Origin: Schlesneria paludicola DSM 18645
Lineage (GTDB): Bacteria; Planctomycetota; Planctomycetia; Planctomycetales; Planctomycetaceae
Assembly: GCF_000255655.1 (NCBI RefSeq)
Contig: NZ_JH636436.1
Location: 654,985-718,984 of the forward strand
Length of the DNA stretch: 64,000 nt
Direction of reading: 5' to 3'
The notes below the pieces were generated by a model that saw only the letters and a list, made by a program, of their open reading frames with translations, ran no database searches and was not told where the DNA came from. Numbering within the stretch: position 1 is the stretch's first letter; the number at the start of each line of letters is the position of its first letter. Below, piece by piece: positions 9,554 to 41,161 of this stretch. Both the position numbers and the translations under genes were made by a program.

Positions 9554-9584
9554 CCGCTAGGCTTCCAACTCCTGAATTCGACTC

Positions 9585-11965: not shown

Positions 11966-12067
11966 CGTGTGTCAACAGTCTTTTGAGCAAGAACACCGTT
12001 TTCGCAGTCCGCGTTCGTTGTGCACGAATCGCTTTCCGTGAGGTTGAACGATTCCGGGCGAAGATCG

Positions 12068-12643
12068 CTAGTTCAAGGCCACTAGCTTTTCGTTGGCCTC
12101 TCGAATTCGGATCAATTCGTCGAGGTCAAACGGAGTCGGCCCCATCGGTTGGGTCCGTTTACCGAATTCGGTCCCATTCAGCGTTCCACCATGCTTGATC
12201 TTGTCTTGCAAGGCGATGATCCCGGCCATCAATTGTTCAGGGCGGGGCGGGCAGCCTGGAACGTACAAATCGACCGGGATAAACCGATCGACGCCTTGAA
12301 CCACTGCGTAGGTGTCGAAGACACCGCCAGTACAGGCACATGCACCCATGCTGATGCACCATTTCGGCTCGGGCATCTGCATCCAGATTCGCTGCAACAC
12401 GGGCAACATTTTCATGGCTACGCGGCCAGCGACAATCATCAGGTCGCACTGGCGAGGACTGAATCGCATGACTTCCGCACCGAACCGCGCGAGGTCGAAT
12501 CGTGACGACGCTGTCGCCATCAATTCGATTCCACAGCAGGCCGTGGCAAATGGCATGGGCCACAAACTATTCGCGCGTGCCCAACTGGCTGCTGCGTCCA
12601 GCGTGGTCATAAAAACATTATCAGGAACGTCTTTCATCGCCAT
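12068..12643 (-). CDS. nuoB: NADH-quinone oxidoreductase subunit B
   Basis: CCGIELM...GACACTGG...CPPRP motifs of the 20-kDa/PSST subunit. Confidence 0.9.
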
Positions 12644-13029
12644 TTAAAGACCCCTTTTCGCCAGGCATACACATACGCGATGGCGAGTGTGGCCATGAAC
12701 ACGAGCATGATTCCGAACACAGTGCCCCGTAATTCCACCGGAACGCCCAAATGAGTGGCGGCTGATGGGTCTTCGAGATATGCGGAAACAGCCCACGGAT
12801 AAAGGAACAGCAGTTCCACGTCGAACACGAGGAACAGGATCGCTACCAGGTAAAATTTCACGTCAAAGGGCTGGCGGGCGTCACCAACGGGGTCCATCCC
12901 CGATTCATACGGCATCTGCTTGACAGCCGTTCTCTTACGGGGTCCCACAATATGAATGATGACCAGGTTCGTAATTACGAATCCGATCAGAACCCCGACA
13001 AACAGCAGTACGGGATACGAACTCTCCAT
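12634..13029 (-). CDS. nuoA: NADH-quinone oxidoreductase subunit A
   Basis: 131-aa 3-TM ORF (PYESGMDP...[23 protein letters not shown]); first gene of the operon. Confidence 0.9.
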
Positions 13030-31447: not shown

Positions 31448-32644
31448 TCACAACAGATTGACCACTTTGTCGGCGAGTCCCTTATCACCAAGGATGATAT
31501 TGAGCTTTCCGGCCGAAGCGATCTTTTCCAAGACTTCCAACTCGCGCAATCGCATCAGTGTCGGGCTGTCCGCCAGCAGTTTGGCCGTGTTGGCCTGGCT
31601 GCGGATCGCCGCTGTCTCTTCGCGTCGTGCGATCAAGTTCGCCTCGGCAGCCTTGTGAGCTTCCGTGACCTTGTTCATCAGATCCTTCATATCACCCGGC
31701 AGGATCACATCCCGGATACCGACCGAGGCGATCTCCAGTCCCAGTTCACCCGCTCGACGTCGGATGTTGTCCTGGATCTCCTTCGCGACAGCATCCTTGT
31801 CCGTCAGGAAAGCATCGAGTTCGCGCGCTCCCACCACGCCTCGCAGCACGAGCTGCGTGTCGCGGTACAGAGCCTGTCGCACATCGTCGGTCTGGCTGAC
31901 GGCCTTGCGAGCATCAACCACCTTGTAGGTCACGACAGCGTTCAGTCGCAAAGTGACTTTGTCGGCCGTCATGATCTCCTGACCACCAACGTCGACGATG
32001 GTTTCCCGCAGGTCAACTTCAACCAGCTTGGCTTCGGCCGTACCTTTCCAGAACGCGTACTCACCCGGAGCAAGCGAGTCGACATAGCGACCGTCGATGA
32101 AAAGCACGCCCACGTGATCACGCTGGACCGAGCCAACATCCAGGACACGGTTGGCCAGCGCCGAGCGGACAATCACCTTGAACTGTTCGTGCTCAAAGCG
32201 GACCGGTTGAATATCGATGATCTCGACGCGGACTTGCTTCTGGCCCGTCCAGCAGGCGTGCTGACCTGCTGGCAAGACTTGACTGAACCGGTTCTCGATC
32301 CAGACCAATGCTCGCTCGTTGTCCTTCAGGTCCAGGACCACGGCGCGCTCGGCGAGCGCACCAGACTTGATCATCAAGTCCAACTTCTCGTGAACGAGCC
32401 ACGGCTCACGCTGCGACACGACGTCGACACGGACTTTGCCGAATGGATCAAAGAACCAGTGAGCACCAGCCGTGAGCAGGCCTTGAAACTCACCGTCGCG
32501 GAACAACAAGCCCATTTCGTAGGTACGAATCTTGAAACGCTTCAACAGAATCACGGCAGACCTCCTTTCTGGAGGATCAATCAACGGAAGGCATTCTTGG
32601 CCTCGGGAATTCAATCGCTTTGACGATTTAGACGACAAAGACAC
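31448..32644 (-). CDS. SPFH/band-7 (slipin-like) domain protein
   Basis: RFKIRTYEMGLLFRDGEF start typical of slipin-like proteins; coiled-coil C-terminus. Confidence 0.8.
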   Translation of the reverse strand: MSLSSKSSKRLNSRGQECLPLIDPPERRSAVILLKRFKIRTYEMGLLFRDGEFQGLLTAGAHWFFDPFGKVRVDVVSQREPWLVHEKLDLMIKSGALAERAVVLDLKDNERALVWIENRFSQVLPAGQHACWTGQKQVRVEIIDIQPVRFEHEQFKVIVRSALANRVLDVGSVQRDHVGVLFIDGRYVDSLAPGEYAFWKGTAEAKLVEVDLRETIVDVGGQEIMTADKVTLRLNAVVTYKVVDARKAVSQTDDVRQALYRDTQLVLRGVVGARELDAFLTDKDAVAKEIQDNIRRRAGELGLEIASVGIRDVILPGDMKDLMNKVTEAHKAAEANLIARREETAAIRSQANTAKLLADSPTLMRLRELEVLEKIASAGKLNIILGDKGLADKVVNLL

Positions 32645-32958: not shown

Positions 32959-33030
32959 CGTGCTGTACGGGAGTCGAACCCGTGACTGCCAGATTCTCAG
33001 TCTGGTGCTCTACCTCTGAGCTAACGTCAC
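32959..33030 (-). tRNA. tRNA-like gene, anticodon GAG (leucine-type anticodon) but class-I length; acceptor stem with two internal mismatches (possible pseudogene)
   Basis: Good D-arm (GCTC-AGAGGTA-GAGC), anticodon arm (CCAGA-CTGAGAA-TCTGG) and T-arm (ACGGG-TTCGACT-CCCGT). Acceptor GTGACGT vs ACAGCAC has A·G and C·A mismatches. 5-nt variable region. Confidence 0.35.
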
Positions 33031-33134
33031 CAATGACTTCCGGTCAGAACCCATGTTCGGAACAGTCGGAGCAAAACTCTTTCGAGTGCCCCGACCGCCG
33101 CTGGACGGATGACATCAATGCTTTCAATCCAAAG

Positions 33135-33206
33135 AGACACCGGTGGGAGTCGAACCCACTGGATGCGGCTTTGCAGGCCGCCGCCACGCCGTGTGACATC
33201 AGCGTC
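33135..33206 (-). tRNA. tRNA-Cys (GCA)
   Basis: Anticodon arm GCGGC-CTGCAAA-GCCGC; T-loop TTCGACT; acceptor pairs with G·U wobbles; U73 discriminator as in tRNA-Cys. Confidence 0.55.
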
Positions 33207-33216
33207 ATTCAGTCAG

Positions 33217-33287
33217 TGTCCCTGCCAGGAGTTGAACCTGGTCTACGACCTTCGCAGGGTCGCGTGCATCCACCACACTCCAAGGAC
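33217..33287 (-). tRNA. tRNA-Arg (GCG)
   Basis: Acceptor GTCCTTG/CAGGGAC; D-stem GTGT/GCAC; anticodon loop CTGCGAA; T-loop TTCAACT; discriminator A. Confidence 0.6.
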
Positions 33288-33360
33288 AAAATATTGGTTC
33301 TCTCACTCAACGCGAGAACGACCTTCGATGACAAAACATTTGTGATCGCGCACTAAAAAA

Positions 33361-33431
33361 TACCCCACCGAGGAATCGAACCTCGCCCGACTGCTTCGAA
33401 GGCAGCCATGCATCCTTCACACTCGCAGGGC
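33361..33431 (-). tRNA. tRNA-Arg (TCG)
   Basis: Anticodon loop CTTCGAA; T-arm CGAGG-TTCGATT-CCTCG; acceptor pairs with three G·U wobbles. Confidence 0.5.
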
Positions 33432-33441
33432 ATATTTTCAT

Positions 33442-33513
33442 TCTCCCGACCTGGACTCGAACCAGGGCCTGGACCTTCGGAGAGTCCAATGCATTCCGCT
33501 ACAACATCGGGAC
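33442..33513 (-). tRNA. tRNA-Arg (CCG), G1·G72 mismatch
   Basis: Anticodon arm GGACT-CTCCGAA-GGTCC; T-arm CCTGG-TTCGAGT-CCAGG; first acceptor pair unpaired. Confidence 0.45.
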
Positions 33514-33599
33514 AAACAGGGCCGACGACTGGATTCGCACCAGCATGATTCCGCTTACAAGGCGGACGCCTTTCTCGATCGAGCCACGTCGGCAGTCAG

Positions 33600-33670
33600 C
33601 ACGAGCGCGAGGATTCGAACCCCATCCAGCAGTTTTGGAGGCTGCCCGCTCTCCCAGGAGCATCACTCGT
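33600..33670 (-). tRNA. tRNA-Trp (CCA)
   Basis: Anticodon loop CTCCAAA (as in E. coli tRNA-Trp); acceptor ACGAGTG/CGCTCGT; T-loop TTCGAAT; discriminator G. Confidence 0.5.
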
Positions 33671-33754
33671 GTGTTGCGTCCGCAAGGCGGGCACGAAAAA
33701 CATCGCGCGAACGATGAACCCATTCGTAACCCGTCTCGCGACGCGCATGAAAAA

Positions 33755-34402
33755 TCATTCATCCAATTCCACGGTCCAGTACGCCTCACTGAGGAACTTG
33801 GACCAGCTTCCGATCCGAACATCGTGCTGAGCATAGAGCGGTTTCCAGGTTGGACGTGTCGGCACCTTCTGCAACGGCATGTGTGCTTCAGCGGGTGTAC
33901 GATCGGCTTTGCGCAGGTTGCATTCCAGACACGCCAAAACACAGTTCTCCCAGACGCTGGTCCCACCTCGAGATCGAGGCAACACGTGATCGATCGTTAG
34001 GTCTTCTGTTCTGAGACACTCATGGCGCGGGCTGCGTTCGGCCTGTGAATCCCGATTGTCCACGCCGATGAAGCGGCTATGCCGCCCACAGTACTGACAG
34101 GTGTATCGATCTCGTTTGTAGATGTTTCGGCGACTGAATGTGACCGTGTTTGTGGGAACCCGGTCATATTCGGTCAGGGTGATCACCTCCGGCACGCGAA
34201 TCCGAGACGTCACCGACTGGACGAACAGTTCATCGTCCTGTGGGATTCGCTTCGCCCAATCAGCCCAGGTGTGCTGCTGAAAGTCAGCCGGATCGACGAT
34301 TCGTGCCCGTTCCGCAGCCACCAGCGTCAATGAACGTGCCACCGAGGCCACACCCACCGGCTGCCAGTTCCGGTTCAGTACCAGAGTCTGTCGACTCAAC
34401 AT
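33755..34402 (-). CDS. HNH endonuclease (McrA-like)
   Basis: HNH motif (YTCQYCG...IDHVLPRSRGGTSVWENCVLACLECNLRK). Start set at the internal Met (MLSRQTLVLN) so it does not overlap tRNA-His. Confidence 0.7.
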   Translation of the reverse strand: MLSRQTLVLNRNWQPVGVASVARSLTLVAAERARIVDPADFQQHTWADWAKRIPQDDELFVQSVTSRIRVPEVITLTEYDRVPTNTVTFSRRNIYKRDRYTCQYCGRHSRFIGVDNRDSQAERSPRHECLRTEDLTIDHVLPRSRGGTSVWENCVLACLECNLRKADRTPAEAHMPLQKVPTRPTWKPLYAQHDVRIGSWSKFLSEAYWTVELDE

Positions 34403-34434
34403 CGCCACCACGATTTTCTCTTTCTTATGAAAAG

Positions 34435-34509
34435 GGTGTTCGAACGGGATTGAACCGTCACCTTCGGCTTCACAGGCCGACATGCAGAAACCACTACACC
34501 ACGAACACC
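34435..34509 (-). tRNA. tRNA-His (GTG) with encoded G-1
   Basis: Anticodon arm TCGGC-CTGTGAA-GCCGA; acceptor GTGTTCG/CGAACAC; an extra 5' G (G-1) opposite the C73 discriminator, the hallmark of tRNA-His. Confidence 0.7.
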
Positions 34510-34510
34510 G

Positions 34511-34616
34511 CGCCTTCGCGCGAGAAAGTAGACAGTAGAGAGTTGAAAGTAGAACTGGTTCGCGACGCGTCTTGTCTACTCTCTACTTTCAATCAACTAC
34601 TTTCTCGCGCAGCGTG
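34511..34616. repeat. Palindromic spacer repeat family A, copy 1 (begins 2 nt upstream of the tRNA-His 5' end)
   Basis: cgccttcgcgcgagaaagtag...ctactttctcgcgcagcg with ~14-bp outer inverted repeats; related copies at 36741-36838 and 38998-39110. Confidence 0.55.
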
Positions 34617-34706
34617 CGGAAGGAGCGGGAGTTGAACCCGCAAGGCACATTAAAAATGCTCGACCGGCTTCCAACCGGTTCCCGTCACCATTCGGGTTGC
34701 CCTTCC
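34617..34706 (-). tRNA. tRNA-Ser (GGA), class II
   Basis: Anticodon arm ACCGG-TTGGAAG-CCGGT; long variable arm; T-arm GCGGG-TTCAACT-CCCGC; discriminator G. Confidence 0.55.
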
Positions 34707-34719
34707 GTTTTGACTTCAA

Positions 34720-34791
34720 TACCTCGACCAGGAATCGAACCCAGAACTCCCCGTTAGAAGCGGAGCATGATTTCTATTTCACCATCGAGGC
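34720..34791 (-). tRNA. tRNA-Arg (TCT)
   Basis: Acceptor GCCTCGA/TCGAGGT; anticodon arm CTCCG-CTTCTAA-CGGGG; T-loop TTCGATT; discriminator A. Confidence 0.6.
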
Positions 34792-34801
34792 CAAAAACAA
34801 G

Positions 34802-34889
34802 CGGAAGGCAAGGGATTCGAACCCTCATCTCCCGTGAGGGAGAGTCGCGTTAGCAGTGCGGTCCGGCCAACCGTATCCGGCTACCTTCC
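34802..34889 (-). tRNA. tRNA-Ser (GCT), class II, weak anticodon stem
   Basis: Anticodon loop CTGCTAA; variable arm CTCCC-TCAC-GGGAG; T-arm GAGGG-TTCGAAT-CCCTT; discriminator G; anticodon stem has terminal mismatches. Confidence 0.5.
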
Positions 34890-34927
34890 AATATCGAAAA
34901 GTTGAAATGCGTTTGCGCGGCATGGTC

Positions 34928-35416
34928 TCATCGCCGTTTCACGCCAGGATCGGCGAAATGTTCAATTCTTGTATGCCGTCCCGTTTCAATGTCCGCGAAG
35001 ACGTAATTCTCCGACGCGACCGGTGACCCAGCCATCCTCCGGAAAATGCCGATCTGCCCCAAGTGCAGCATCGCGTCCGCAAACGGACCTTGCAGCAGGT
35101 CCTCTTCATTGACATCGCGAATTGAAGACTCGTTGAGAAGTGACGCGTCAAGCTTTGCTAGGATCTCGAAGTAACCAAACACTTCGGCATTCCATGCCAA
35201 CATAGGCGGCTCAGTGGATTCATAGGGAACCATGAACGAATGCGCGTAGATGAGCACACCTCTCATGTGATTGAGAATCTCGCGTGGGCTTCGAACAGAT
35301 TCTGAGGGCCGGAAGTCTGCGATTTCCGGTGGCATATTCCTGAGCACATTGGCTCCGCGATATGCCAGCGCCGACAGAAAGTGCCGCAGCATGTATCTCT
35401 TCGTCGTTGTTTCCAT
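34928..35416 (-). CDS. DinB/YfiT-like four-helix-bundle protein (hypothetical)
   Basis: Start has GGAGAT 5 nt upstream (METTTKRYMLRHF...). DinB_2-like size and His spacing. Weak assignment. Confidence 0.45.
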   Translation of the reverse strand: METTTKRYMLRHFLSALAYRGANVLRNMPPEIADFRPSESVRSPREILNHMRGVLIYAHSFMVPYESTEPPMLAWNAEVFGYFEILAKLDASLLNESSIRDVNEEDLLQGPFADAMLHLGQIGIFRRMAGSPVASENYVFADIETGRHTRIEHFADPGVKRR

Positions 35417-35589
35417 CGTTATCTCCAATTGTTCCCAACGATTCGCCAAAGCGGCCTGTGAACATACTGAGTCGATTGATCCCCAATAGCGTTGAACCAT
35501 CAGTTCCAGCATGTCAGGTTGATGTCGTACTGATTGATCATGACGTCATGATCAATCGAATAACGAAATCTGAGACCTCAATCCAGAAG

Positions 35590-36254
35590 TTATTCCCAGT
35601 ATTGCTCCCACTTGTCGCCGTAAGATTCCTTGAGGCGTTCTAGGTAGACATAAGTCTTGATCTTGCCCATTTGCAAATCGCGGCCGCTTCGTCCTGATTT
35701 GCAAATGACACCCTCGGTGACACCGTATTTCCCGCAACGAACATCTTCGGCGAATGCCCCGGTGAACTTGCCACGGTGAACTTGCCACGGTACACGATTC
35801 GTGCAATCGGAAGATGTCCGAACCGTTCTACGAATTCGAAAGGCCCGAGTAGGTCTTCGTCACGTGCGACATCAAACATGACCAATCGCTTGACATCATC
35901 AAATTTATGTCGCCCAGCGAATGAATTCGCTCCGAGGTATTCAGCAAATGCAGTGAACCCTTGAACTGTGCTTTCCGAGGCCAATTCACTGAACGTGTGG
36001 GCCAAGGACGCGGACAATGTTTGACGAAAAACTTCCATCGCATCCGATAGCTCAGGGTGATCGTGACGAAACAGTTCCTCGCCGCGATCATCAATATTGA
36101 ACTCATCGCGTCGCGTTCCAAACGCATGCCAGCCGAAGTCCCGATCCCAACGGAAATGCAAATTCGTTCCGTCGTATTTTTCGAAAGCTATGCACTCGGT
36201 GAACGGGAAGTCTTTAGTGTTCGGAATCTTGCGGTAATGTAGCGCGGAGGGCAT
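35590..36254 (-). pseudogene. Rnl2-family ATP-dependent RNA ligase (nucleotidyltransferase domain), apparently frameshifted by a 14-bp tandem duplication at 35761-35788
   Basis: Motif I EKYDGTNLHF (cf. T4 Rnl2 EKIHGTNF), motif III-like AFAEYLG, motif IV LVMFDV and RGKF are in the annotated 204-aa frame (35640-36254). Motif V EGVICKSG appears only in the frame restored by deleting one 14-nt unit, which then runs to TAA at 35590. Confidence 0.5.
35761..35788. repeat. Perfect 14-bp tandem duplication (ggtgaacttgccac x2) inside the RNA-ligase coding region
   Basis: Direct reading of the sequence; the unit length is not a multiple of 3. Confidence 0.9.
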
Positions 36255-36343
36255 GGAGGAATCCTGGCTATCGACCTGATCGCTTTTCCTGTTTGCGTAC
36301 TTGGCCGTCTACTTTCACGGTCGGGTGCCTGCCCTGTCTGCAG

Positions 36344-36428
36344 TGACCAAGGGGAGAGTCGAACTCCCAAGCCCACGAGGGGCACGACGTTCTGAGCGTC
36401 GCGTGTCTACCAGTTGCACCACTTGGCC
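36344..36428 (-). tRNA. tRNA-Leu (CAG), canonical class II
   Basis: 3-bp D-stem with 11-nt loop containing GGTAGA; anticodon arm CGACG-CTCAGAA-CGTCG; 16-nt variable arm (GCCC-CTCGT-GGGC); discriminator A. Confidence 0.7.
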
Positions 36429-36436
36429 ATAATCAG

Positions 36437-36509
36437 TGACCCGTGCGGGATTTGAACCCGCGTTGCCGGCATGAGGGGCCAGCATCCTGAACCGCTAGAA
36501 GAACGGGCC
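36437..36509 (-). tRNA. tRNA-like gene with atypical anticodon loop CCCTCAT (C33; anticodon CTC/Glu-like or CAT-like)
   Basis: Good acceptor (GGCCCGT/ACGGGTC), T-arm GCGGG-TTCAAAT-CCCGC, 6-bp anticodon stem; identity unresolved. Confidence 0.35.
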
Positions 36510-36519
36510 GTTGTTCGAG

Positions 36520-36600
36520 TGCGTCGGGCAGGAGTTGAACCTGCACTGCACGAGGCGGGTGGGTTACAGCCACTTGGGCACGCCAATGCCCAGCCGACGC
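36520..36600 (-). tRNA. tRNA-Tyr (GTA), class II
   Basis: Acceptor GCGTCGG/CCGACGC perfect; D-stem GGGC/GCCC; anticodon loop CTGTAAC; 13-nt variable arm; discriminator A. Confidence 0.65.
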
Positions 36601-36664
36601 ATTCTAATTCGCGCTCACGAATATCTTGCAAACGGGTGTCGTTCGCGCGATGCACGTGAGCGAG

Positions 36665-36739
36665 TAACACGGGTGGGAGTCGAACCCACAGACCACGAAG
36701 GTTTGAGCTTCGCCGCTTTGCCGGATTGCGTACCGTGCC
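36665..36739 (-). tRNA. tRNA with CAA (leucine-type) anticodon, Leu-like D-arm but short variable region (class I length, 75 nt)
   Basis: Anticodon arm CGAAG-CTCAAAC-CTTCG perfect; D-stem CGC/GCG with 11-nt loop; variable region only 6 nt; discriminator A. Confidence 0.5.
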
Positions 36740-36740
36740 G

Positions 36741-36838
36741 CGCCTTCTGCGAGAGAGTAAAAGGTTGAAAGTCGCAAGTAGACAAGAATGGATCCGTCTA
36801 CTCTCAACTCACTACCACCTACTTTCTCGCGCAGCGTA
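36741..36838. repeat. Palindromic spacer repeat family A, copy 2 (fills the spacer between two tRNAs)
   Basis: cgccttctgcgagagagta...ctactttctcgcgcagcgtagc; shares the termini of copy 1. Confidence 0.55.
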
Positions 36839-36839
36839 G

Positions 36840-36913
36840 CGTCCTCGATGGGATTTGAACCCACGTCTCCACCGTGACAGGATGGAGAGCATTCCAGGCT
36901 GCTCCGCGAGGAC
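36840..36913 (-). tRNA. tRNA-Asp (GTC)
   Basis: Acceptor GTCCTCG/CGAGGAC perfect; D-arm GAGC/GCTC; anticodon loop CTGTCAC; discriminator G. Confidence 0.7.
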
Positions 36914-37034
36914 TTTTTCACGCGCGATCAAGATGGGAATGGAAATCAGTGTCGACCGCGCGTTGATAATTAACTCACCTCCCAACGCGCGAGTGACTGG
37001 GTCTGCGCAACCCATCACCGACGCGCACTAAACG

Positions 37035-37108
37035 TAGCTCAGGTGGGAGTCGAACCCACAGCATCCCTGGTTCTAAGCCAAGGTGGTCTGCCGATTGCCT
37101 ACCGAGCC
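37035..37108 (-). tRNA. tRNA with TAG (leucine-type) anticodon and short variable region; weak D-stem
   Basis: Anticodon arm CTTGG-CTTAGAA-CCAGG; T-arm GTGGG-TTCGACT-CCCAC; 6-nt variable region; discriminator A. Confidence 0.45.
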
Positions 37109-37121
37109 ATGTCTTGTTTGA

Positions 37122-37194
37122 TGCCCAGAGCGGGATTTGAACCCGCAAACACTCGATCTTAAGTCGAGTCACTCACACGTTGGCGTACCTGGGC
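37122..37194 (-). tRNA. tRNA with TAA (leucine-type) anticodon and 5-nt variable region (73 nt)
   Basis: Acceptor GCCCAGG/TCTGGGC; 3-bp D-stem plus 10-nt loop; anticodon arm CTCGA-CTTAAGA-TCGAG perfect; T-arm GCGGG-TTCAAAT-CCCGC; discriminator A. Confidence 0.5.
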
Positions 37195-37206
37195 ATGTCA
37201 TCGAAG

Positions 37207-37278
37207 TAATCCCGGATGGACTCGAACCATCGTTACCTGGGTGTAGGCCAGGCGTCGTCGCCGCTGGACCACGGGATC
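37207..37278 (-). tRNA. tRNA-Val (TAC) with C33
   Basis: Anticodon arm CCTGG-CCTACAC-CCAGG (position 33 is C); T-arm GATGG-TTCGAGT-CCATC; discriminator A. Confidence 0.5.
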
Positions 37279-37288
37279 AAATAAAAAA

Positions 37289-37359
37289 TGGACTTATCGG
37301 GAATCGCACCCGAATTTTTGGTTTGCAGGACCGATGTCTTCCTGTTGGACCATGAGCCC
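37289..37359 (-). pseudogene. Degenerate tRNA-like element (non-canonical T-loop TGCGATT, acceptor and anticodon-stem mismatches; loop CCTGCAA)
   Basis: Only partial cloverleaf complementarity. Confidence 0.25.
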
Positions 37360-37379
37360 GATTGTTCGTCGCCAGCGAG

Positions 37380-37465
37380 CGGAAGCCGTGGGGCTCGAAC
37401 CCACAAGCGGGATGTTCCCGCCGCCTGTTTTCAAGACAGGTTCCTCATCCGGCCGGATGACTTCC
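37380..37465 (-). tRNA. tRNA-Ser (TGA), class II
   Basis: Acceptor GGAAGTC/GGCTTCC; anticodon arm CCTGT-CTTGAAA-ACAGG; variable arm GCGGG-AACAT-CCCGC; discriminator G. Confidence 0.6.
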
Positions 37466-37477
37466 GTAATCTGTAAA

Positions 37478-37551
37478 TTGTGGGAGTTGGAATCGAACCA
37501 ACGCCTCCGGGTTCAGAGCCCAGCATCGCCACCAGCAGCGACTATCCCGCA
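37478..37551 (-). tRNA. tRNA-Gln (CTG)
   Basis: U1-A72 first pair as in tRNA-Gln; D-stem GTCG/CGAT; anticodon arm CTGGG-CTCTGAA-CCCGG; one C3·A70 mismatch. Confidence 0.55.
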
Positions 37552-37627
37552 ATGAATTTGATTGAGACAAGACACTCGTACTTTCCAAGGGTTCGTGTGC
37601 TACCGTGGTTCTCGGTAAACTGATGGA

Positions 37628-38101
37628 ATGGATGTGAACTGTGCCAAGCAGATGTTCTTTGCCTACGACGGGTCGCGTTTCTACATGTCGCGAAACGGAG
37701 ATGAGGACAAATACGCTCAGATGCAGGTCCCAGCATCGATCGAAGCACAATGGTTGGATGAGTTGACATCTCGCAAACTCGATCAACTCATTTCTTCGGC
37801 AAATTGGATGGTTGTACATTTTCTCCTTCATCATTCCGACTTCCGCCAATTGGACCGACTCGCCGCAGCTGCGCCATTGGGAACTCTTCAGGAGAAATGT
37901 GCATTTCTTGAGGAACTCCTAAAATATGTACAGCAATGTTGTGGAGCATATGAGTCCAGTCGTCTCGCTAACGTTTGCGATTCAATTCTTCGAGATGCAT
38001 TCACGTTGCGAAAGCGGGCTCGGGCGAAGAATTCCCTTGCTCGAATTGAACGCCTCGTCGAGAACGCCGAAAAGTTTGTCGCGACGTTGCTCTCAGATTG
38101 A
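37628..38101 (+). CDS. Hypothetical protein (157 aa) in a lower-GC segment inside the tRNA array
   Basis: Intact ORF on the opposite strand to the array with no overlap with tRNAs; no recognisable motif. Confidence 0.4.
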   Translation: MDVNCAKQMFFAYDGSRFYMSRNGDEDKYAQMQVPASIEAQWLDELTSRKLDQLISSANWMVVHFLLHHSDFRQLDRLAAAAPLGTLQEKCAFLEELLKYVQQCCGAYESSRLANVCDSILRDAFTLRKRARAKNSLARIERLVENAEKFVATLLSD

Positions 38102-38104
38102 TGA

Positions 38105-38178
38105 ATTGCGGGGGCAGGAATCGAACCTGCGCCTCCGGGGTCAAAGCCCAGCATCGCTGCCAACAGCGACTACCCCGC
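38105..38178 (-). tRNA. tRNA-Gln (TTG)
   Basis: Acceptor TGCGGGG/CCCCGCA perfect with U1-A72; anticodon arm CTGGG-CTTTGAC-CCCGG; T-arm GCAGG-TTCGATT-CCTGC. Confidence 0.7.
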
Positions 38179-38185
38179 AATGGAA

Positions 38186-38257
38186 GAGGGACGGGTGGGA
38201 CTCGAACCCACGCGCTGGTGCTTAACAAACACCTGCTCTGCCGCTGAGCTACCGACC
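38186..38257 (-). tRNA. tRNA-Asn (GTT), T4·T69 acceptor mismatch
   Basis: D-arm GCTC-AGCGGCA-GAGC; anticodon arm GGTGT-TTGTTAA-GCACC; T-arm GTGGG-TTCGAGT-CCCAC. Confidence 0.55.
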
Positions 38258-38264
38258 CAATCGA

Positions 38265-38336
38265 GAGTGCCCTGCGGGAATCGAACCCGCCTGTCCAACT
38301 TGGAAGGCTGGCACCTCTGCCGATCGGTCAAGGGCA
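38265..38336 (-). tRNA. tRNA-Gly (TCC)
   Basis: Acceptor GTGCCCT/AGGGCAC perfect; anticodon arm CCAGC-CTTCCAA-GTTGG; U73 discriminator. Confidence 0.65.
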
Positions 38337-38359
38337 CATATTCTTTCCTCAAGTCGGAA

Positions 38360-38491
38360 GCCGTGGGACTCGAACCCACAATCCCGATTCTCGGGACACC
38401 TGCTTTCGAGCGTTGTACATCTATCGCGGCTTCAGCCTTCATCCTCGCTTTCGCTCGGCCGCAGGCCTTGCTTCCAGCCGGATGACTTCCA
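38360..38491 (-). tRNA. tRNA-Ser(CGA)-like gene with a ~50-nt insertion between anticodon-stem position 31 and the loop (intron-like or disrupted)
   Basis: Ends match tRNA-Ser(TGA) at 37380-37465 (GGAAGTCATCC... / ...GTGGGTTCGAGTCCCACGGCTTCCG). Stem CCTGC/GCAGG encloses the 50-nt insert followed by a canonical loop CTCGAAA. Variable arm TCCCG-AGAAT-CGGGA intact. Confidence 0.3.
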
Positions 38492-38634
38492 TTCGTGTTA
38501 AGGCTGCGGCGACAGGAATCGAACCATCAACCGAAGCCGCTGGCCGAATAGGTCAGTTGAAGGCGAAGGGCGATAGTCTTTCAAATCCGAGTCGCCTGCC
38601 CGTACCAACACGGACTCCACCGCAATTTATATCA

Positions 38635-38708
38635 GTCAGCGCGGTCGGATTTGAACCGACGATCTCGTGGTCCCAAGCCACGCGGATTTCCATGCTTTCC
38701 CACACGCT
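38635..38708 (-). tRNA. tRNA-Pro (TGG)
   Basis: C1-G72 first pair and A73, typical of tRNA-Pro; anticodon arm CGTGG-CTTGGGA-CCACG; T-arm GTCGG-TTCAAAT-CCGAC. Confidence 0.7.
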
Positions 38709-38768
38709 GACAATCGTTCATCGCGGATCGACCTTCGTTGTCATCAAGGATCGTCCACGCGAACAAAA

Positions 38769-38839
38769 AAGCACCCAGCGGGAGTTGAACCCGCACCTCC
38801 GCCTTGGCGAGACGGTACGCTGCCGCTACGTCATGGGTG
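38769..38839 (-). tRNA. tRNA-Gly (GCC) with C33
   Basis: Acceptor GCACCCA/TGGGTGC perfect; D-stem ACGT/GCGT; anticodon loop TCGCCAA; U73. Confidence 0.5.
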
Positions 38840-38923
38840 CATGCATTCCTGGCCGAATTGTTAAAGACCTATTCGCAACGCGCGATTGGCCAAGTTTGTG
38901 AACTCGCTTCATCGCGCATGAAA

Positions 38924-38995
38924 AAGCACCGGGTGGGACTCGAACCCACGTTGCCGTATTACGGGTGCGGTGTCTTGGCCGCTAAACGACCAGTG
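38924..38995 (-). tRNA. tRNA-Thr (CGT) with C33
   Basis: Acceptor GCACTGG/CCGGTGC; D-stem GTTT/AGAC; anticodon arm CCGCA-CCCGTAA-TACGG (one mismatch); T-arm GTGGG-TTCGAGT-CCCAC. Confidence 0.45.
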
Positions 38996-38997
38996 CA

Positions 38998-39110
38998 GCG
39001 CCTTCGGCGAGAAAGTAGAGAGTGGAAAGTCGTGAGTGGACAAGAACCGATCCGTCTACTTTCCACTCTCTACGGACTATTCTCTCTGTCCCGGCACGCC
39101 GGGACAGAGA
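38998..39110. repeat. Palindromic spacer repeat family A, copy 3, plus a 13-bp hairpin (ctctctgtcccgg/ccgggacagagag) that overlaps the 3' end of tRNA-Lys(CTT)
   Basis: cgccttcggcgagaaagtagagagtggaaagt...actttccactctctac has a perfect 16-bp inverted repeat. It starts 3 nt upstream of the 5' end of the preceding tRNA. Confidence 0.55.
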
Positions 39111-39179
39111 GACCAGACGGACTTGAACCGTCACTTGCTCGGGTAAGAACCGAGTGTGCTGCCACTAACACCTTGATCC
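39107..39179 (-). tRNA. tRNA-Lys (CTT)
   Basis: D-stem GTGT/GCAC; anticodon arm CTCGG-TTCTTAC-CCGAG perfect; T-arm GACGG-TTCAAGT-CCGTC; acceptor with two G·U wobbles. Confidence 0.6.
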
Positions 39180-39196
39180 CGTAATCCTTCGTTCAG

Positions 39197-39268
39197 TTAG
39201 GCCTGGGCGGAGTTGAACCGTCGTCTGGCCCTTATAAGGAGCCTGCTCTCATCGTTGAGCTACAGGCC
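39197..39268 (-). tRNA. tRNA-Ile (TAT)
   Basis: Canonical D-arm GCTC-AACGATGA-GAGC; anticodon arm GGCTC-CTTATAA-GGGCC; A73. Confidence 0.55.
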
Positions 39269-39277
39269 CAGTAATCA

Positions 39278-39349
39278 ATGGGGCCGGAGGGATTCGAACC
39301 CCCACCGGGCAGATTAAAAGTCTGCTGTGCTGCAGTTACACCACGACCC
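39278..39349 (-). tRNA. tRNA-Lys (TTT)
   Basis: Acceptor GGGGTCG/CGGCCCC; anticodon arm GCAGA-CTTTTAA-TCTGC perfect; T-loop TTCGAAT; A73. Confidence 0.65.
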
Positions 39350-39410
39350 CGGATGAGGACGTGGTTCCATTTGTTCGTGAGGTCTCGATCCATAATCTGC
39401 ACCTTGTTCA

Positions 39411-39481
39411 ATCGCTTGGAGTGGAGTTGAACCACCGCTGTCGCCGTATCAGAACGACGTGCTTCCGTTACACCACCAAGC
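39411..39481 (-). tRNA. tRNA-Ile (GAT)
   Basis: Acceptor CGCTTGG/CCAAGCG perfect; anticodon loop CTGATAC; T-arm GGTGG-TTCAACT-CCACT; A73. Confidence 0.6.
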
Positions 39482-39623
39482 GGAGTCGGGATGGTCAGAA
39501 TCGAACTGACTGTGTTCAACTACCGCGGCCCGGCCTTCATCCTCGCTATTCGCTCGGCGTCATTCCTTACTTCTCAGCTACCAGCCCGGAAATGACAGAA
39601 CTTTGACTTCGTCAAAACGAAGA

Positions 39624-39659
39624 AGCCCGGTGTCCTTTGCGTGACACCGGGCTCTTTTG
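39624..39659. terminator. GC-rich hairpin (11-bp stem agcccggtgtc/gacaccgggct) followed by a T-run; reads as a terminator in both orientations
   Basis: Perfect inverted repeat with cttttg on the plus strand and tcttcgttttg on the minus strand; lies at the upstream (minus-sense) edge of the tRNA array. Confidence 0.4.
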
Positions 39660-40153: not shown

Positions 40154-41161
40154 TTAAGCCCAGATGCCAATCGGCTGACCTTTTTTGTAGTTCAAGAACG
40201 CTTGCAGCGAAACACGCGGACCGCCCTTAAAAGGGATCACAGCGTGGGGCCTGCCTGTGTTGATGATGACGGCATCACCACTTTTGAGCTCGATTCGAAT
40301 GGGGGGCGGAAGAAGCTTTTGGAAACGTAGCTGCAATTCTTCGTTCTGATAATTCGATTCAAGGAAAAAGTGTTTGACGGAATGCCAATGACCGATTGCT
40401 TCATGCATCGTGGTGATTTGAGGATTCCACAGATAGAGATGACCACCAATTTCGGGTTGCTTCAGGTACACATTCAACGAGAACTGGCCCGAATTGCTAC
40501 TGAGCAGTGGTGAACTATCCACATGGCACCCCAATGACGTTTCCGTAACGGTCTCAGTATTGTCGTACATCACCCGCACAAGCCCGGGTGACATTTTACA
40601 GCCCTTATAACGGGCAACAGTCATGCCATCATCCCATAGCTCATCGACCATGATGCGAAATTTGTCATAGGGAGAAACGTACGGCGCCGCCATGCTTCGT
40701 AGTTTCTCGGATGTTGAGATGGCGTTTTGAAAGTAGCGATGCCAGCTTTCGTCGCTCTTATTGGCCATACTGAATGGCTCGCCAAAGACATTGACATCAC
40801 TGGGTTTGAACTCGGTTTTCAGATCGTAGATATTCCAGTTCTCAAGTTTTTCTTTCAGGATGTTTGTCGTCATCCGTTCGCAGACTTCAGCCGTGCAGAA
40901 CGCGGGAAGGTGAATTGCCAGAATGCGATTAGTAAATAAATCTCGCAGCAATTCCGATGACAGCCGGTCCGTTTTGACAATTCCGGACCCATCCGAGGGC
41001 ATCGTTTTCCCGGCAGTCAGTTGTTCCATCGGCCAGAGCAAGCACTTCATGATAGGGGTGCGAAGGATTCGTCCGATCAATGGAATGGTGCTAGCTGGTC
41101 GCGGAGGAACTTTCATGATGCTCATCGTCGATCGATTCTTTCGGGCTTCAGTCCGCGCCAC
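40154..41161 (-). CDS. 2OG-Fe(II) oxygenase-like protein (hypothetical) in an AT-rich segment
   Basis: HxD...H...RxS-like arrangement (LGCHVDSS, GRPHAVIPF, RVSLQAF). Codon usage and GC differ from the flanks. Start uncertain. Confidence 0.45.
   Translation of the reverse strand: MARTEARKNRSTMSIMKVPPRPASTIPLIGRILRTPIMKCLLWPMEQLTAGKTMPSDGSGIVKTDRLSSELLRDLFTNRILAIHLPAFCTAEVCERMTTNILKEKLENWNIYDLKTEFKPSDVNVFGEPFSMANKSDESWHRYFQNAISTSEKLRSMAAPYVSPYDKFRIMVDELWDDGMTVARYKGCKMSPGLVRVMYDNTETVTETSLGCHVDSSPLLSSNSGQFSLNVYLKQPEIGGHLYLWNPQITTMHEAIGHWHSVKHFFLESNYQNEELQLRFQKLLPPPIRIELKSGDAVIINTGRPHAVIPFKGGPRVSLQAFLNYKKGQPIGIWA

What the first reader, a model, noticed from the sequence alone, without database searches (positions are those of the whole stretch)
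33217..39268. Unusual anticodon repertoire: four arginine isoacceptors including GCG, and tRNA-Ile(UAU)
Bacteria normally read CGN with ACG (inosine) plus CCG, and read AUA with lysidine-modified CAU. Here GCG, TCG, CCG and TCT arginine tRNAs and a UAU isoleucine tRNA are encoded, next to GAT-Ile. Both Gln anticodons and both Lys anticodons are also present. A set that decodes without the modification enzymes TadA and TilS is what phage or mobile-element tRNA sets look like when they supplement host decoding.
Basis: partly seen in the sequence, partly recalled or inferred. Interest (0 to 1): 0.5.

Follow-up and report, generated by a model that had tools for sequence, protein, structure and literature searches.

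The report
Accessory tRNA gene array in a planctomycete
This is an extra cluster of about 33 tRNA genes in a planctomycete chromosome. It belongs to a mobile cassette family already reported in that phylum, and its unusual arginine (GCG) and isoleucine (UAU) tRNAs are conserved, apparently working members.

Summary
Arg-GCG, Arg-UCG, Arg-CCG, Arg-UCU, Ile-UAU, Ile-GAU, both Gln and both Lys tRNA genes sit in a minus-strand array of 33 tRNA genes (32959-39482). The array lies inside an ordinary planctomycete chromosome (nuo, glnA, hyp, DUF1501/DUF1800).

It is not a one-off. At least 25 Planctomycetota genomes carry the same gene order, with an HNH endonuclease gene between His and Trp and often an SPFH/Band7 gene downstream. 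Arg-GCG is in 20 of 25 arrays and Arg-ACG in 2. Pooled, the family uses G34/U34/C34 in nearly every codon box.

Arg-GCG and Ile-UAU orthologues keep invariant anticodon loops. Ten of 21 stem pairs in each show compensatory changes, so they are under selection as tRNAs.

One IMG/VR phage contig carries the whole cassette as a 6.75-kb cargo insertion. About 79 related phage contigs lack it.

Kim et al. 2016 already described "degenerate tRNA clusters" carrying tRNA-Ile(UAU) in Planctomycetes. Santamaria-Gomez et al. 2021 list Planctomycetes among the phyla with L-arrays.

The array is accessory and mobile, but phage tRNA sets mostly keep Arg-ACG, and the core tRNA set could not be inspected. Verdict: new member of a known kind, moderate interest.

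The parts
32959..39600 (-). The tRNA array as a whole: 33 recognisable tRNA genes, three disrupted ones and four inserted ORFs. Order: (Pro*)-Ile GAU-Lys UUU-Ile UAU-Lys CUU-Thr CGU-Gly GCC-Pro UGG-(Asn*)-(Ser CGA*)-Gly UCC-Asn-Gln UUG-[ORF]-Gln CUG-Ser UGA-Ala UGC-Val UAC-Leu UAA-Leu UAG-Asp-Leu CAA-Tyr-Glu CUC-Leu CAG-[Rnl-like][ORF]-Ser GCU-Arg UCU-Ser GGA-His-[HNH]-Trp-Thr UGU-Arg CCG-Arg UCG-Arg GCG-Cys-tRNA-like.
   Evidence: The same order is seen in 25 arrays.
33216..33287 (-). tRNA-Arg(GCG). It would read CGC/CGU through G34 without inosine.
   Evidence: 49 bits. In 22 orthologues 99.1% of stem cells pair, 10 of 21 pairs have compensatory changes, and the loop CUGCGAA and the D-loop GGA (A20) are invariant.
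33361..33431 (-). tRNA-Arg(UCG).
   Evidence: Rfam 37 bits; ARAGORN at relaxed threshold. Orthologues in 16-17 arrays.
33441..33514 (-). tRNA-Arg(CCG).
   Evidence: 37 bits.
34720..34791 (-). tRNA-Arg(UCU).
   Evidence: 50.8 bits.
39196..39270 (-). tRNA-Ile(UAU). It would read AUA without lysidine. The window copy has one A-C mismatch in the T stem.
   Evidence: 57.4 bits. In 14 orthologues 97.3% of stem cells pair, 10 of 21 pairs have compensatory changes, and the loop CUUAUAA and A73 are invariant.
39412..39482 (-). tRNA-Ile(GAU), array type with a non-canonical D arm.
33755..34402 (-). HNH endonuclease gene between tRNA-His and tRNA-Trp. The mechanical ORF runs to 34483 and overlaps tRNA-His. 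The likely start is the Met at about 34402.
   Evidence: Pfam HNH 3.7e-13; phrog_16726 1.7e-34. Homologues sit at the same position in all 25 arrays and in phage tRNA clusters. Start inferred.
31448..32644 (-). SPFH/Band7 gene at the downstream end of the cassette.
   Evidence: Pfam Band_7 1.9e-27. It lies directly downstream of the array in 10 other loci and inside the phage cargo insertion in L081.
32959..33030 (-). tRNA-like element that ARAGORN calls 'Leu(GAG)'. It is not a Leu tRNA. The body is conserved, the 7-nt loop is hypervariable and the acceptor is mismatched.
   Evidence: 11 loci carry it between Cys and Band7, with nine different loop sequences.
35590..36254 (-). RNA-ligase-like ORF (KYDG motif) broken by a 14-bp tandem duplication at 35762-35789. 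It is specific to this lineage.
   Evidence: Pfam RNA_ligase 26.7 bits after repair, cut-off 27; phrog_548 3.5e-7. No homologue in the 80 related loci.
34928..35512 (-). In-array ORF of 194 aa, unknown function, specific to this lineage.
   Evidence: No hit in Pfam, PHROGs, NCBIfam, PADLOC or PDB. Absent from related loci.
37628..38101 (+). 157-aa ORF on the opposite strand, inside a roughly 470-nt insertion between the two Gln genes. Unknown function.
38356..38490 (-). tRNA-Ser(CGA) carrying a 50-nt insertion (38411-38460) between positions 31 and 32 of the anticodon arm. All other tRNA parts are intact.
38510..38625 (-). Orthologue of the array's first tRNA-Asn(GUU), disrupted from the anticodon loop onward by a roughly 65-nt insertion.
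   Evidence: alignment to L004, L005 and L029 Asn genes and to the L003 insertion.
39487..39590 (-). Remnant of a Pro-like tRNA (T arm and acceptor retained) containing the same repeat element (39518-39576).
39623..39654 (-). Strong terminator-like hairpin (12-bp stem followed by a T run) just upstream of the array. It marks the upstream edge of the cassette.

Best explanation
The region is a supernumerary tRNA gene array of the L-array type. It forms part of a roughly 8-kb cassette: tRNA array, HNH endonuclease gene, a tRNA-like element and an SPFH/Band7 gene. This cassette is widespread in Planctomycetota and can move, including as cargo in a phage genome.

The family was built on one rule. 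Each codon box is served by G34, U34 and C34 tRNAs, with no A34 and with Ile-UAU for AUA. Arg-GCG, Arg-UCG and Arg-CCG would therefore read CGN without TadA-made inosine, and Ile-UAU would read AUA without TilS-made lysidine.

Shown here:
- The cassette is conserved across the phylum.
- Arg-GCG and Ile-UAU are under purifying selection as tRNAs.
- The cassette is present in one member of a conserved phage backbone and absent from its relatives.

Inferred:
- The tRNAs are charged and used.
- They act as an alternative or backup decoding set when housekeeping tRNAs or their modification are limiting, for example under phage infection, tRNA-cleaving toxins or translational stress.
- They supply AUA decoding for acquired genes.
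- The HNH enzyme promotes spread of the cassette by homing.

The window copy is partly eroded: about 33 of some 45 ancestral genes remain, three tRNA genes are disrupted, and foreign ORFs are inserted.
For: - Chromosomal context: nuo, glnA, hyp and DUF1501/DUF1800 genes surround the array.
- Conservation: the same gene order with HNH between His and Trp occurs in 25 arrays.
- Anticodons: Arg-GCG is in 20 of 25 arrays, Arg-ACG in 2 and Ile-UAU in 13-14. The pooled table shows G/U/C34 in every box except Gly-CCC, with only sporadic A34.
- Selection: both tRNAs show 10 of 21 compensatory pairs and 97-99% pairing, and 0 of 500 shuffles reach the observed values on the main measures. Their anticodon loops are invariant.
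- Arg identity elements A20, C35 and G36 are present and invariant (combined with established E. coli ArgRS identity rules).
- Accessory status: the array lacks Met/fMet, Phe and Glu-UUC. Array tRNAs score lower than canonical tRNAs outside arrays, and the window's canonical Val(GAC) differs from the array Val(GAC) family.
- Mobility: upstream flanks are variable. The cassette is a 6.75-kb insertion (L081 about 6242-12997) in a phage backbone with recombinase, topoisomerase and terminase; about 79 related contigs share the backbone without tRNAs. Band7 in L081 is 90-94% identical to chromosomal copies.
- HNH homologues are embedded in tRNA clusters of bona fide phages, for example L085 with a Gp23 capsid gene.
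- Literature: PMC4807772 (clusters are supernumerary; Ile-UAU occurs only in clusters; AUA is rare); PMC8421152 (L-arrays spread by horizontal transfer, have homing endonuclease neighbours, and are induced under translational stress in Anabaena).
Against: - No expression, charging or modification data exist for this array.
- The rest of the source genome could not be examined. Whether a core Arg-ACG, Ile2-CAU, tadA or tilS exists is unknown, so independence from TadA and TilS follows from the anticodons and is not shown to be the selected property.
- Several window genes look damaged: three insertions, C33 in Ala-UGC, an A-C mismatch in the Ile-UAU T stem, and a frameshifted ligase gene.
- The phage link rests on one contig lineage (L081 and L148). 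The direction of transfer is unknown.
- The window has no integrase, att repeat or phage gene.
- Codon usage gives no sign of a special need: ATA is 2.6% of Ile codons.
Confidence: 0.7

Rival explanations
1. The lineage is simply atypical. This array is the organism's main, vertically inherited tRNA set, and Planctomycetota as a whole read CGY with Arg-GCG and AUA with Ile-UAU.
For: The cassette is present across several planctomycete families with conserved order. HNH and Band7 identities fall off gradually (77% to about 50%), as expected for old vertical descent. Arg-GCG survives in small remnants of the form His-HNH-Trp-Arg GCG-Cys even where the rest of the array is gone (L011, L013, L060, L068).
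Against: The window array has no Met/fMet, Phe or Glu-UUC. Canonical 71-72-bit tRNAs exist outside arrays, including Val-GAC in the window and Arg-UCG in L020. Many HNH loci with long flanks have no array. Complete arrays such as L035, L054 and L074 lack Ile-UAU. PMC4807772 reports a 46-tRNA baseline without clusters and states that UAU is the only anticodon confined to clusters. That implies CGY decoders exist outside clusters.
Confidence: 0.08
2. The array is a decaying relic of an old phage or island insertion. Most of its tRNA genes are non-functional pseudogenes, and the odd anticodons are drift.
For: Rfam scores are low. Three tRNA genes are disrupted by insertions. The ligase gene is frameshifted. 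The Met-to-Ala segment and the Phe-Glu-Pro segment are lost relative to fuller arrays. Sporadic anticodon mutations occur in relatives: ACG, ACC, AAA, ACA and UCA. Kim et al. call these clusters 'degenerate'.
Against: Drift would not keep anticodon loops invariant or produce 10 of 21 compensatory stem pairs in Arg-GCG and Ile-UAU over HNH divergence down to about 50%. Gene order and the G/U/C34 pattern are kept in 25 arrays.
Confidence: 0.15
3. The array RNAs act mainly outside decoding. They could be decoys or sponges for tRNA-targeting nucleases, substrates of RNA repair or quality control (Ro60/Rsr, RNA ligase), or processing signals.
For: A conserved tRNA-like element with a hypervariable loop and no proper acceptor ends the array. 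A Ro60/TROVE gene lies downstream of the array in 6 loci. An RNA-ligase-like ORF sits inside the window array. Published work shows that phage tRNAs can counter anticodon nucleases (PMC10264068, PMC11555353).
Against: The near-complete and orderly anticodon repertoire, the invariant anticodons, and retained identity elements (A20/C35/G36 in Arg, A73 in Ile and Leu, G3:U70 in Ala, G-1 in His) point to decoding. No nuclease or toxin gene was found next to the array.
Confidence: 0.07

Closest known systems
'Degenerate tRNA gene clusters' of Planctomycetes carrying tRNA-Ile(UAU) (Kim et al. 2016, PLoS One, PMC4807772, main text and S2 Text)
   Same: Same phylum. Clusters of many low-scoring tRNA genes, judged supernumerary and horizontally acquired. 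A single, well-formed tRNA-Ile(UAU) sits inside the cluster. AUA is a rare codon (2.4-5.9% there, 2.6% here).
   Different: That paper reports clusters of 2-28 genes with 'disrupted synteny'. It does not mention Arg-GCG, the G/U/C34 pattern, the HNH gene, the Band7 gene or a phage copy. Here the gene order is conserved across 25 arrays of up to 45 genes.
L-arrays (Santamaria-Gomez et al. 2021, NAR, PMC8421152), prototype the Anabaena PCC 7120 trn operon
   Same: A long, same-strand, non-periodic array. It adds genes to the host set, is patchily distributed, and has a homing-endonuclease gene as neighbour. Planctomycetes are listed among phyla with L-arrays.
   Different: L-arrays are said usually not to add new anticodons; this family adds at least Ile-UAU and probably Arg-GCG. 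Induction by translational stress and regulation by repeats were shown only in Anabaena and are untested here.
tRNA array units (Tran et al. 2016, GBE, PMC4758250), for example on the Acidithiobacillus mobile element
   Same: Meets the formal definition of at least 20 tRNA genes at 2 or more per kb. Accessory and linked to mobile DNA.
   Different: The Acidithiobacillus arrays carry Arg-ACG and mainly duplicate core isoacceptors.
Phage tRNA clusters with embedded homing endonucleases (T4 segB region as discussed in PMC8421152; tRNA-rich mycobacteriophages, PMC10264068)
   Same: HNH homologues of the window protein lie inside tRNA clusters on IMG/VR phage contigs, one with a T4-type capsid gene. 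Ile-UAU is common in those clusters.
   Different: The window copy is chromosomal with no phage genes nearby. Phage clusters mostly keep Arg-ACG (19 loci against 2).
AUA decoding by tRNA-Ile(UAU) in Mycoplasma mobile and in tilS-deleted Bacillus subtilis (PMC3575796, PMC3919564)
   Same: Same anticodon solution for reading AUA without lysidine.
   Different: In those cases the tRNA replaces the lysidine system in the core set. Here it sits in an accessory array, and the status of tilS is unknown.
CGN decoding without TadA in Mollicutes (PMC3711424), and the archaeal G34/U34/C34 anticodon pattern (own knowledge)
   Same: CGN is read without inosine. The pooled repertoire resembles the archaeal pattern with no A34.
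   Different: Mollicutes rely on Arg-UCG (and unmodified ACG), not GCG. The tRNAs here have a bacterial type: G-1 is encoded in His, and Tyr is class II.

Membership tests
tRNA array unit (Tran et al. 2016) | At least 20 tRNA genes at a density of at least 2 per kb | tested here: met
   33 tRNA genes in about 6.5 kb, about 5 per kb.
L-array (Santamaria-Gomez et al. 2021) | Long array, all genes on one strand, closely spaced, not periodic | tested here: met
   All 33 genes are on the minus strand and most spacers are 5-110 nt. Four ORF insertions interrupt the array. No periodic tRNA pattern.
L-array (Santamaria-Gomez et al. 2021) | Supernumerary: adds to a complete housekeeping set elsewhere in the genome | tested here: inconclusive
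   Indirect evidence only. The array lacks Met/fMet, Phe and Glu-UUC. A canonical Val-GAC lies outside it. The literature gives a baseline of 46 tRNA genes (PMC4807772). The source genome was not retrievable.
L-array (Santamaria-Gomez et al. 2021) | Patchy distribution and horizontal transfer | tested here: met
   Upstream contexts vary. Array-bearing and array-less HNH loci are interspersed. The cassette is present in one phage backbone and absent from about 79 relatives.
L-array (Santamaria-Gomez et al. 2021) | Neighbouring homing-type endonuclease gene | tested here: met
   An HNH gene lies between His and Trp in all 25 arrays. Endonuclease activity and homing were not tested.
L-array (Santamaria-Gomez et al. 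2021) | Silent in normal growth, induced under translational stress | not testable with these tools
   No expression data. No sigma-70-like promoter was found upstream on the array strand.
Planctomycete degenerate tRNA cluster (Kim et al. 2016) | Planctomycete genome | tested here: met
   The window carries DUF1501/DUF1800 genes and TAT-signal GFO/IDH/MocA oxidoreductases. All 80 best genomic relatives are Planctomycetota.
Planctomycete degenerate tRNA cluster (Kim et al. 2016) | Cluster tRNAs score below canonical tRNAs | tested here: met
   Window array tRNAs score 34.6-63.3 bits against 71.2 for Val-GAC. In related loci, tRNAs outside arrays score 71-72 bits and array tRNAs mostly 30-65.
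Planctomycete degenerate tRNA cluster (Kim et al. 2016) | Single-copy, well-formed tRNA-Ile(UAU) inside the cluster | tested here: met
   One copy at 39196-39270, 57.4 bits, among the best-scoring members. Conserved in 13-14 arrays.
Phage or prophage tRNA cluster | Lies within a phage genome, with structural, packaging or integration genes around it | tested here: not met
   The window has no phage, integrase or transposase gene and no att repeat. A homologous cassette does lie inside a phage backbone elsewhere (L081).
Functional elongator tRNA (Arg-GCG, Ile-UAU) | Cloverleaf maintained by compensatory substitutions, with a fixed anticodon | tested here: met
   10 of 21 pairs with changes on both sides in each; 99.1% and 97.3% pairing. 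Slid-partner controls give 28-53% pairing. Anticodon loops are invariant.
Functional elongator tRNA (Arg-GCG, Ile-UAU) | Aminoacylation with the cognate amino acid and use on the ribosome | not testable with these tools
   Only identity elements can be read from the sequence: A20, C35 and G36 for Arg; A73 for Ile.
Decoding set independent of TadA and TilS | No A34 Arg tRNA and no CAU Ile2 tRNA in the set; CGN and AUA are covered by G/U/C34 and UAU | tested here: met
   Window: GCG, UCG, CCG and UAU present; no ACG; no CAU. Family: ACG in 2 of 25 arrays. Some relatives carry CAU genes of unclear identity.
Decoding set independent of TadA and TilS | Host lacks, or the array tRNAs bypass, tadA and tilS | not testable with these tools
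   The rest of the genome is unavailable.

The most novel reading that the evidence does not exclude
The cassette is a portable, nearly complete decoding kit, exchanged between phages and chromosomes, that does not depend on wobble-base editing. It uses G34/U34/C34 only, Arg-GCG, Ile-UAU and Leu tRNAs without the long variable arm. On this reading, selection has kept the kit across Planctomycetota because it keeps translation going when host tRNAs or their modification enzymes are attacked. Its odd companions would be functional parts of the same conflict system rather than debris. These are a tRNA-like element with a hypervariable 'anticodon' loop, short repeat elements that land in anticodon arms, and links to Ro60 and RNA ligase genes.
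Probability: 0.25. Interest if true: 0.6.

Novelty: new member of a known kind. Interest (0 to 1): 0.38.

Why it matters
The function of accessory tRNA arrays is still poorly understood. This family offers a clean comparative system: dozens of copies with one gene order, a clear anticodon rule, and a caught-in-the-act transfer into a phage.

If Arg-GCG and Ile-UAU are used, they show a bacterial route to reading CGY and AUA without the otherwise near-universal TadA and TilS steps. That bears on how phages and hosts contest the tRNA pool.

The practical lesson for annotation is that these anticodons in a planctomycete do not signal a new code or an unusual core set. They mark this cassette.

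Tried and rejected
- Known phage: megablast of 30-42 kb against 50,697 phage records found no match.
- Source genome: exact-protein look-ups for HNH and HypD found nothing on record. The best genomic relative is only 77% identical. A whole-genome tRNA census and a tadA/tilS check were therefore impossible.
- Empty-site test at the window's own chromosomal position: a metagenome scan with ORF 40154-41161 found no relatives. A scan with the HisA-like gene found only relatives at 44% identity or less, with no informative synteny.
- Integration at tRNA-Val(GAC): no repeat of its 3' end occurs anywhere in the window.
- Known RNA families for the insertions and repeats: a permissive Rfam scan of 30.5-40.5 kb returned only tRNA-type hits and chance matches. 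I considered an archaeal bulge-helix-bulge intron, a group I intron and a hammerhead for the 50-nt insertion. All were rejected on size, on the predicted fold (a symmetric 3x3 internal loop) and on the absence of Rfam hits.
- Defence-system assignment of the in-array ORFs: PADLOC and NCBIfam gave only generic HNH-domain hits.
- Structure-based annotation of the ligase-like ORF and of ORF 34928-35512: nothing meaningful in PDB sequences.
- Codon-usage difference between in-array ORFs and housekeeping genes: none convincing.
- My first strict DNA pattern for Arg-GCG in IMG/VR found nothing, because L081 differs in the T arm. A looser pattern found only the L081 contig.
- I first took 'Leu(GAG)' at 32959-33030 for a Phe-like or array Leu tRNA. 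I rejected this once its orthologues showed a hypervariable loop.

Full report

Yes. ARAGORN finds 31 tRNA genes in the window, 30 of them on the minus strand between 32959 and 39482. Rfam's tRNA model and ARAGORN at a relaxed threshold add Arg(UCG) at 33361-33431 and Ala(UGC) at 37289-37359.

| tRNA | Coordinates |
|---|---|
| Arg GCG | 33216-33287 |
| Arg UCG | 33361-33431 |
| Arg CCG | 33441-33514 |
| Arg UCU | 34720-34791 |
| Ile UAU | 39196-39270 |
| Ile GAU | 39412-39482 |
| Gln CUG | 37477-37552 |
| Gln UUG | 38105-38180 |
| Lys CUU | 39107-39180 |
| Lys UUU | 39279-39350 |

The array has no Arg-ACG and no CAU gene. It also lacks Phe-GAA and Glu-UUC.

**2. What surrounds it?**

The window is ordinary bacterial chromosome. 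It carries the nuo operon, glutamine synthetase, polysaccharide genes, a NiFe hydrogenase with its hyp maturation genes, and the DUF1501/DUF1800 pair and TAT-signal GFO/IDH/MocA oxidoreductases typical of Planctomycetota. No phage, integrase or transposase gene is present. GC content is flat at about 55%.

Four ORFs sit inside the array:
- An HNH endonuclease gene lies between His and Trp (33755 to about 34402).
- A 194-aa ORF has no family match (34928-35512).
- An RNA-ligase-like ORF contains a KYDG motif. A 14-bp tandem duplication at 35762-35789 breaks it. Removing one copy restores a 216-aa reading frame (Pfam RNA_ligase 26.7 bits, cut-off 27; phrog_548 3.5e-7).
- A 157-aa ORF lies on the opposite strand (37628-38101).

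An SPFH/Band7 gene follows the array (31448-32644). A strong terminator-like hairpin precedes it (39623-39654).

**3. It belongs to a large, syntenic family**

The HNH protein has at least 591 relatives in the species-representative genome collection. The 80 best are all Planctomycetota, and the closest is 77% identical. Twenty-four of those 80 loci, plus the window, carry at least 15 tRNA genes in the same order:

Phe-Glu-Pro-Pro-Ile GAU-Lys-Ile UAU-Lys-Thr-Gly-Pro-Asn-Ser-Gly-(Asn)-Gln-Gln-Ser-Ala-Val-Leu-Leu-Asp-Leu-Tyr-Glu-Leu-Met-Leu-Val-Thr-Ala-Ala-Ser-Arg-Ser-Arg-His-[HNH]-Trp-Thr-Arg CCG-Arg UCG-Arg GCG-Cys.

The fullest array has 45 genes.

Anticodon counts across the 25 arrays:

| Anticodon | Arrays (of 25) |
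|---|---|
| Arg GCG | 20 |
| Arg ACG | 2 |
| Ile UAU | 13-14 |

In the two arrays with ACG, that gene derives from the UCG paralogue.

Pooled over the arrays, every codon box is served by G34, U34 and C34 tRNAs. Only Gly-CCC is missing, and A34 appears only sporadically. Arg-GCG is therefore one instance of a uniform rule, not an isolated oddity. It is the one place where that rule departs from normal bacterial practice. Normal practice is ACG plus CCG; Table 1 of PMC3711424 lists no GCG gene for the outgroup bacteria shown.

Band7 lies directly downstream in 10 other loci at 65-87% identity. Upstream flanks are not conserved. The window's other three ORFs have no counterpart in related loci, so they are lineage-specific insertions.

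**4. Are the unusual tRNAs real tRNAs?**

Twenty-two Arg-GCG orthologues pair at 99.1% of stem positions. Ten of 21 pairs have changed on both sides. Fourteen Ile-UAU orthologues pair at 97.3%, again with 10 of 21 compensatory pairs. No shuffle reaches the observed values on the main measures, and sliding the pairing partners drops pairing to 28-53%.

The anticodon loops CUGCGAA and CUUAUAA never vary. Arg-GCG keeps A20, C35 and G36, the ArgRS identity set established in E. coli. Ile-UAU keeps A73.

This argues strongly against pseudogenes. Charging and use on the ribosome remain inferred.

**5. Accessory or core?**

The window array cannot translate alone, because it lacks initiator and elongator Met, Phe and Glu-UUC. 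Its tRNAs score 35-63 bits against Rfam. Canonical tRNAs outside arrays score 71-72 bits: Val-GAC at 31058 in the window, Asn in L001 and Arg-UCG in L020. The window's Val-GAC is unrelated to the array Val-GAC family.

Kim et al. 2016 (PMC4807772) report 46 tRNA genes in planctomycetes without large clusters and 76-96 in those with them. They call the clusters degenerate and horizontally acquired. They also state that UAU is the only anticodon found exclusively in clusters.

I could not inspect the rest of the source genome. The presence of Arg-ACG, Ile2-CAU, tadA and tilS is therefore untested.

**6. Mobility and the phage link**

HNH homologues occur on 66 IMG/VR loci, and many are embedded in tRNA clusters. 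One of these, L085, has a T4-type Gp23 capsid gene and a prohead protease gene next to a 35-tRNA cluster.

L081 is a 94-kb contig that carries the planctomycete cassette itself: 36 tRNAs including Ile-UAU and Arg CCG-UCG-GCG-Cys, the HNH gene, the tRNA-like element and Band7. On one side lie a serine recombinase, a phage-type topoisomerase and phrog_8203. On the other lies a large terminase (phrog_675, 4e-89).

About 79 related contigs (terminase 74-100% identical) share this collinear backbone but have no tRNA genes. Backbone alignment stops at about L081:6241 and resumes at about 13000. The gap is about 190-250 nt in the relatives and 6.75 kb in L081. The cassette is thus a discrete cargo insertion.

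Band7 in L081 is 90-94% identical to chromosomal copies in L025, L043 and L048. This indicates a recent exchange, of unknown direction. The Arg-GCG family was found in IMG/VR only on this contig.

In an HNH tree, array-bearing and array-less loci are interspersed. Remnants of the form His-HNH-Trp-Arg GCG-Cys occur, which suggests frequent erosion.

**7. How it most likely works**

The cassette supplies a second, nearly complete set of decoders that does not need A34-to-inosine editing or lysidine. G34 in Arg-GCG reads CGC and CGU. UCG and CCG read CGA and CGG. UAU reads AUA, as shown for this anticodon in Mycoplasma mobile and Bacillus subtilis (PMC3575796, PMC3919564).

Two findings suggest the likely use. 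The Anabaena L-array is induced under translational stress (PMC8421152). Phage tRNAs can escape or offset tRNA-targeting defences (PMC10264068, PMC11555353). By analogy, this set probably serves as a backup when housekeeping tRNAs are depleted or cleaved. Kim et al. also proposed routine help with rare AUA codons. These steps are inferred.

The window's codon usage shows no special demand. ATA is 2.6% of Ile codons. Among Arg codons, CGU plus CGC make up 51%, CGA 27% and CGG 14%.

**8.

The accessory and mobile reading is supported. The claim that freedom from TadA and TilS is typical of phage sets is only half right. In the phage clusters examined, Ile-UAU is common (13 loci), but Arg-ACG dominates (19 loci against 2 with GCG).

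**9. Comparison with what is known, and novelty**

The array meets the tRNA-array-unit definition and the structural criteria for an L-array. It matches the planctomycete clusters with Ile-UAU described in 2016.

The details that appear to be new are:
- phylum-wide synteny;
- the G/U/C34 rule with conserved Arg-GCG;
- the cassette composition (HNH, tRNA-like element, Band7);
- the phage cargo case.

I file it as a new member of a known kind, of moderate interest.

**10. Side observations**

These are listed separately under things noticed in passing:
- Short repeat elements are inserted in anticodon arms.
- A tRNA-like element has a hypervariable loop.
- Long hairpin repeats occur only within the array.
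- Four Leu tRNAs lack the long variable arm.
- A Ro60 gene lies next to some arrays.

Noticed in passing
window 32959-33030 (-); also L001, L006, L025, L031, L043, L048, L054, L074, L078, L081: ARAGORN calls this gene tRNA-Leu(GAG), but it is a conserved tRNA-like element lying between Cys and Band7. The D arm, anticodon stem (CCAGA/UCUGG) and T arm are nearly identical across 11 loci. The 7-nt loop is different in almost every locus (CTGAGAA, TTTAAGG, CTCGTAC, CACGTAA, CCGTGAA, CCACAAA and others), and the acceptor does not pair. Function unknown.
   Followed up: partly
window 38411-38460 (in Ser-CGA), 39518-39576 (in a Pro-like remnant), 38510-38625 (Asn); L002, L003, L005, L021, L022, L039: A family of repeat elements of about 50-105 nt is found only inside these arrays. 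Its core is TGGAAGCAAGG..GCCGAGCGAWAGCGAGGATGAAGGC..CCGCGGTAG, with a second half GACTATCGCCCTTCGC..CTTCGGTTGATGG. It often sits where an expected tRNA is missing: Ser-CGA in the window and L003, Glu-CUC in L005 and L021, Arg-UCU in L003. In the window's Ser-CGA it is a clean 50-nt insertion between positions 31 and 32. It matches no Rfam family and does not look like a known intron type.
   Followed up: partly
window 34510-34615, 36740-36837, 38998-39101; L002 7254-7346 and 7524-7616: Three copies of a roughly 100-nt long-hairpin repeat (-45 to -51 kcal/mol) each fill a whole tRNA spacer, about 2.2 kb apart. None occurs elsewhere in the 64-kb window, and two copies sit in the array of a close relative.
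   Followed up: partly
window 37120-37195, 37034-37108, 36664-36739; related arrays: Leu-UAA, Leu-UAG, Leu-CAA and (in relatives) Leu-GAG are 72-80 nt long, with a short unpaired variable region. They keep a Leu-type D arm and A73. Only Leu-CAG has the normal long variable arm (83-86 nt). This holds across the arrays.
   Followed up: partly
window 35762-35789: A perfect 14-bp tandem duplication (CGTGGCAAGTTCAC x2) frameshifts the RNA-ligase-like ORF. It could be a recent inactivation, a slippage-prone site or an assembly error.
   Followed up: partly
L005 11049-11120: The orthologue of Arg-UCG in this array has the anticodon UCA. Its loop is CUUCAAA rather than CUUCGAA, which would match the UGA stop codon.
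   Followed up: no
L004 7756-9420, L007 5108-6919, L035, L039, L051, L020: A Ro60/TROVE plus vWA protein gene (Rsr-like) lies just downstream of the array in six loci. This hints at a link with RNA quality control and possibly Y-RNA-like partners. The gene is not present in the window.
   Followed up: no
L001 880-950, L004 4002-4154, L006, L020 and others: The array 'Met(CAU)' genes in relatives are 69-71 nt long with unusual T loops (AUCGAUA or UGCGACA) and short D arms. Whether they are initiator, elongator or Ile2-type is unclear. The window array has none.
   Followed up: no
L148-L227 (IMG/VR): A phage-like backbone recurs in about 80 viral contigs from many samples. It comprises two serine recombinases, a topoisomerase, phrog_8203 and a large terminase, with the terminase 74-100% identical. 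Only the L081/L148 lineage carries the tRNA cassette.
   Followed up: partly
window 37289-37359 (-): Ala(UGC) keeps the G3:U70 pair but seems to have C rather than U at position 33 and a mismatch in the anticodon stem. ARAGORN calls it only at a relaxed threshold.
   Followed up: no
window, 31 long ORFs: CGA makes up 27% of arginine codons in the housekeeping genes, which is high for a bacterium relying on inosine. A canonical, 71-bit Arg-UCG gene lies outside the array in L020. This suggests planctomycete core sets include Arg-UCG.
   Followed up: no
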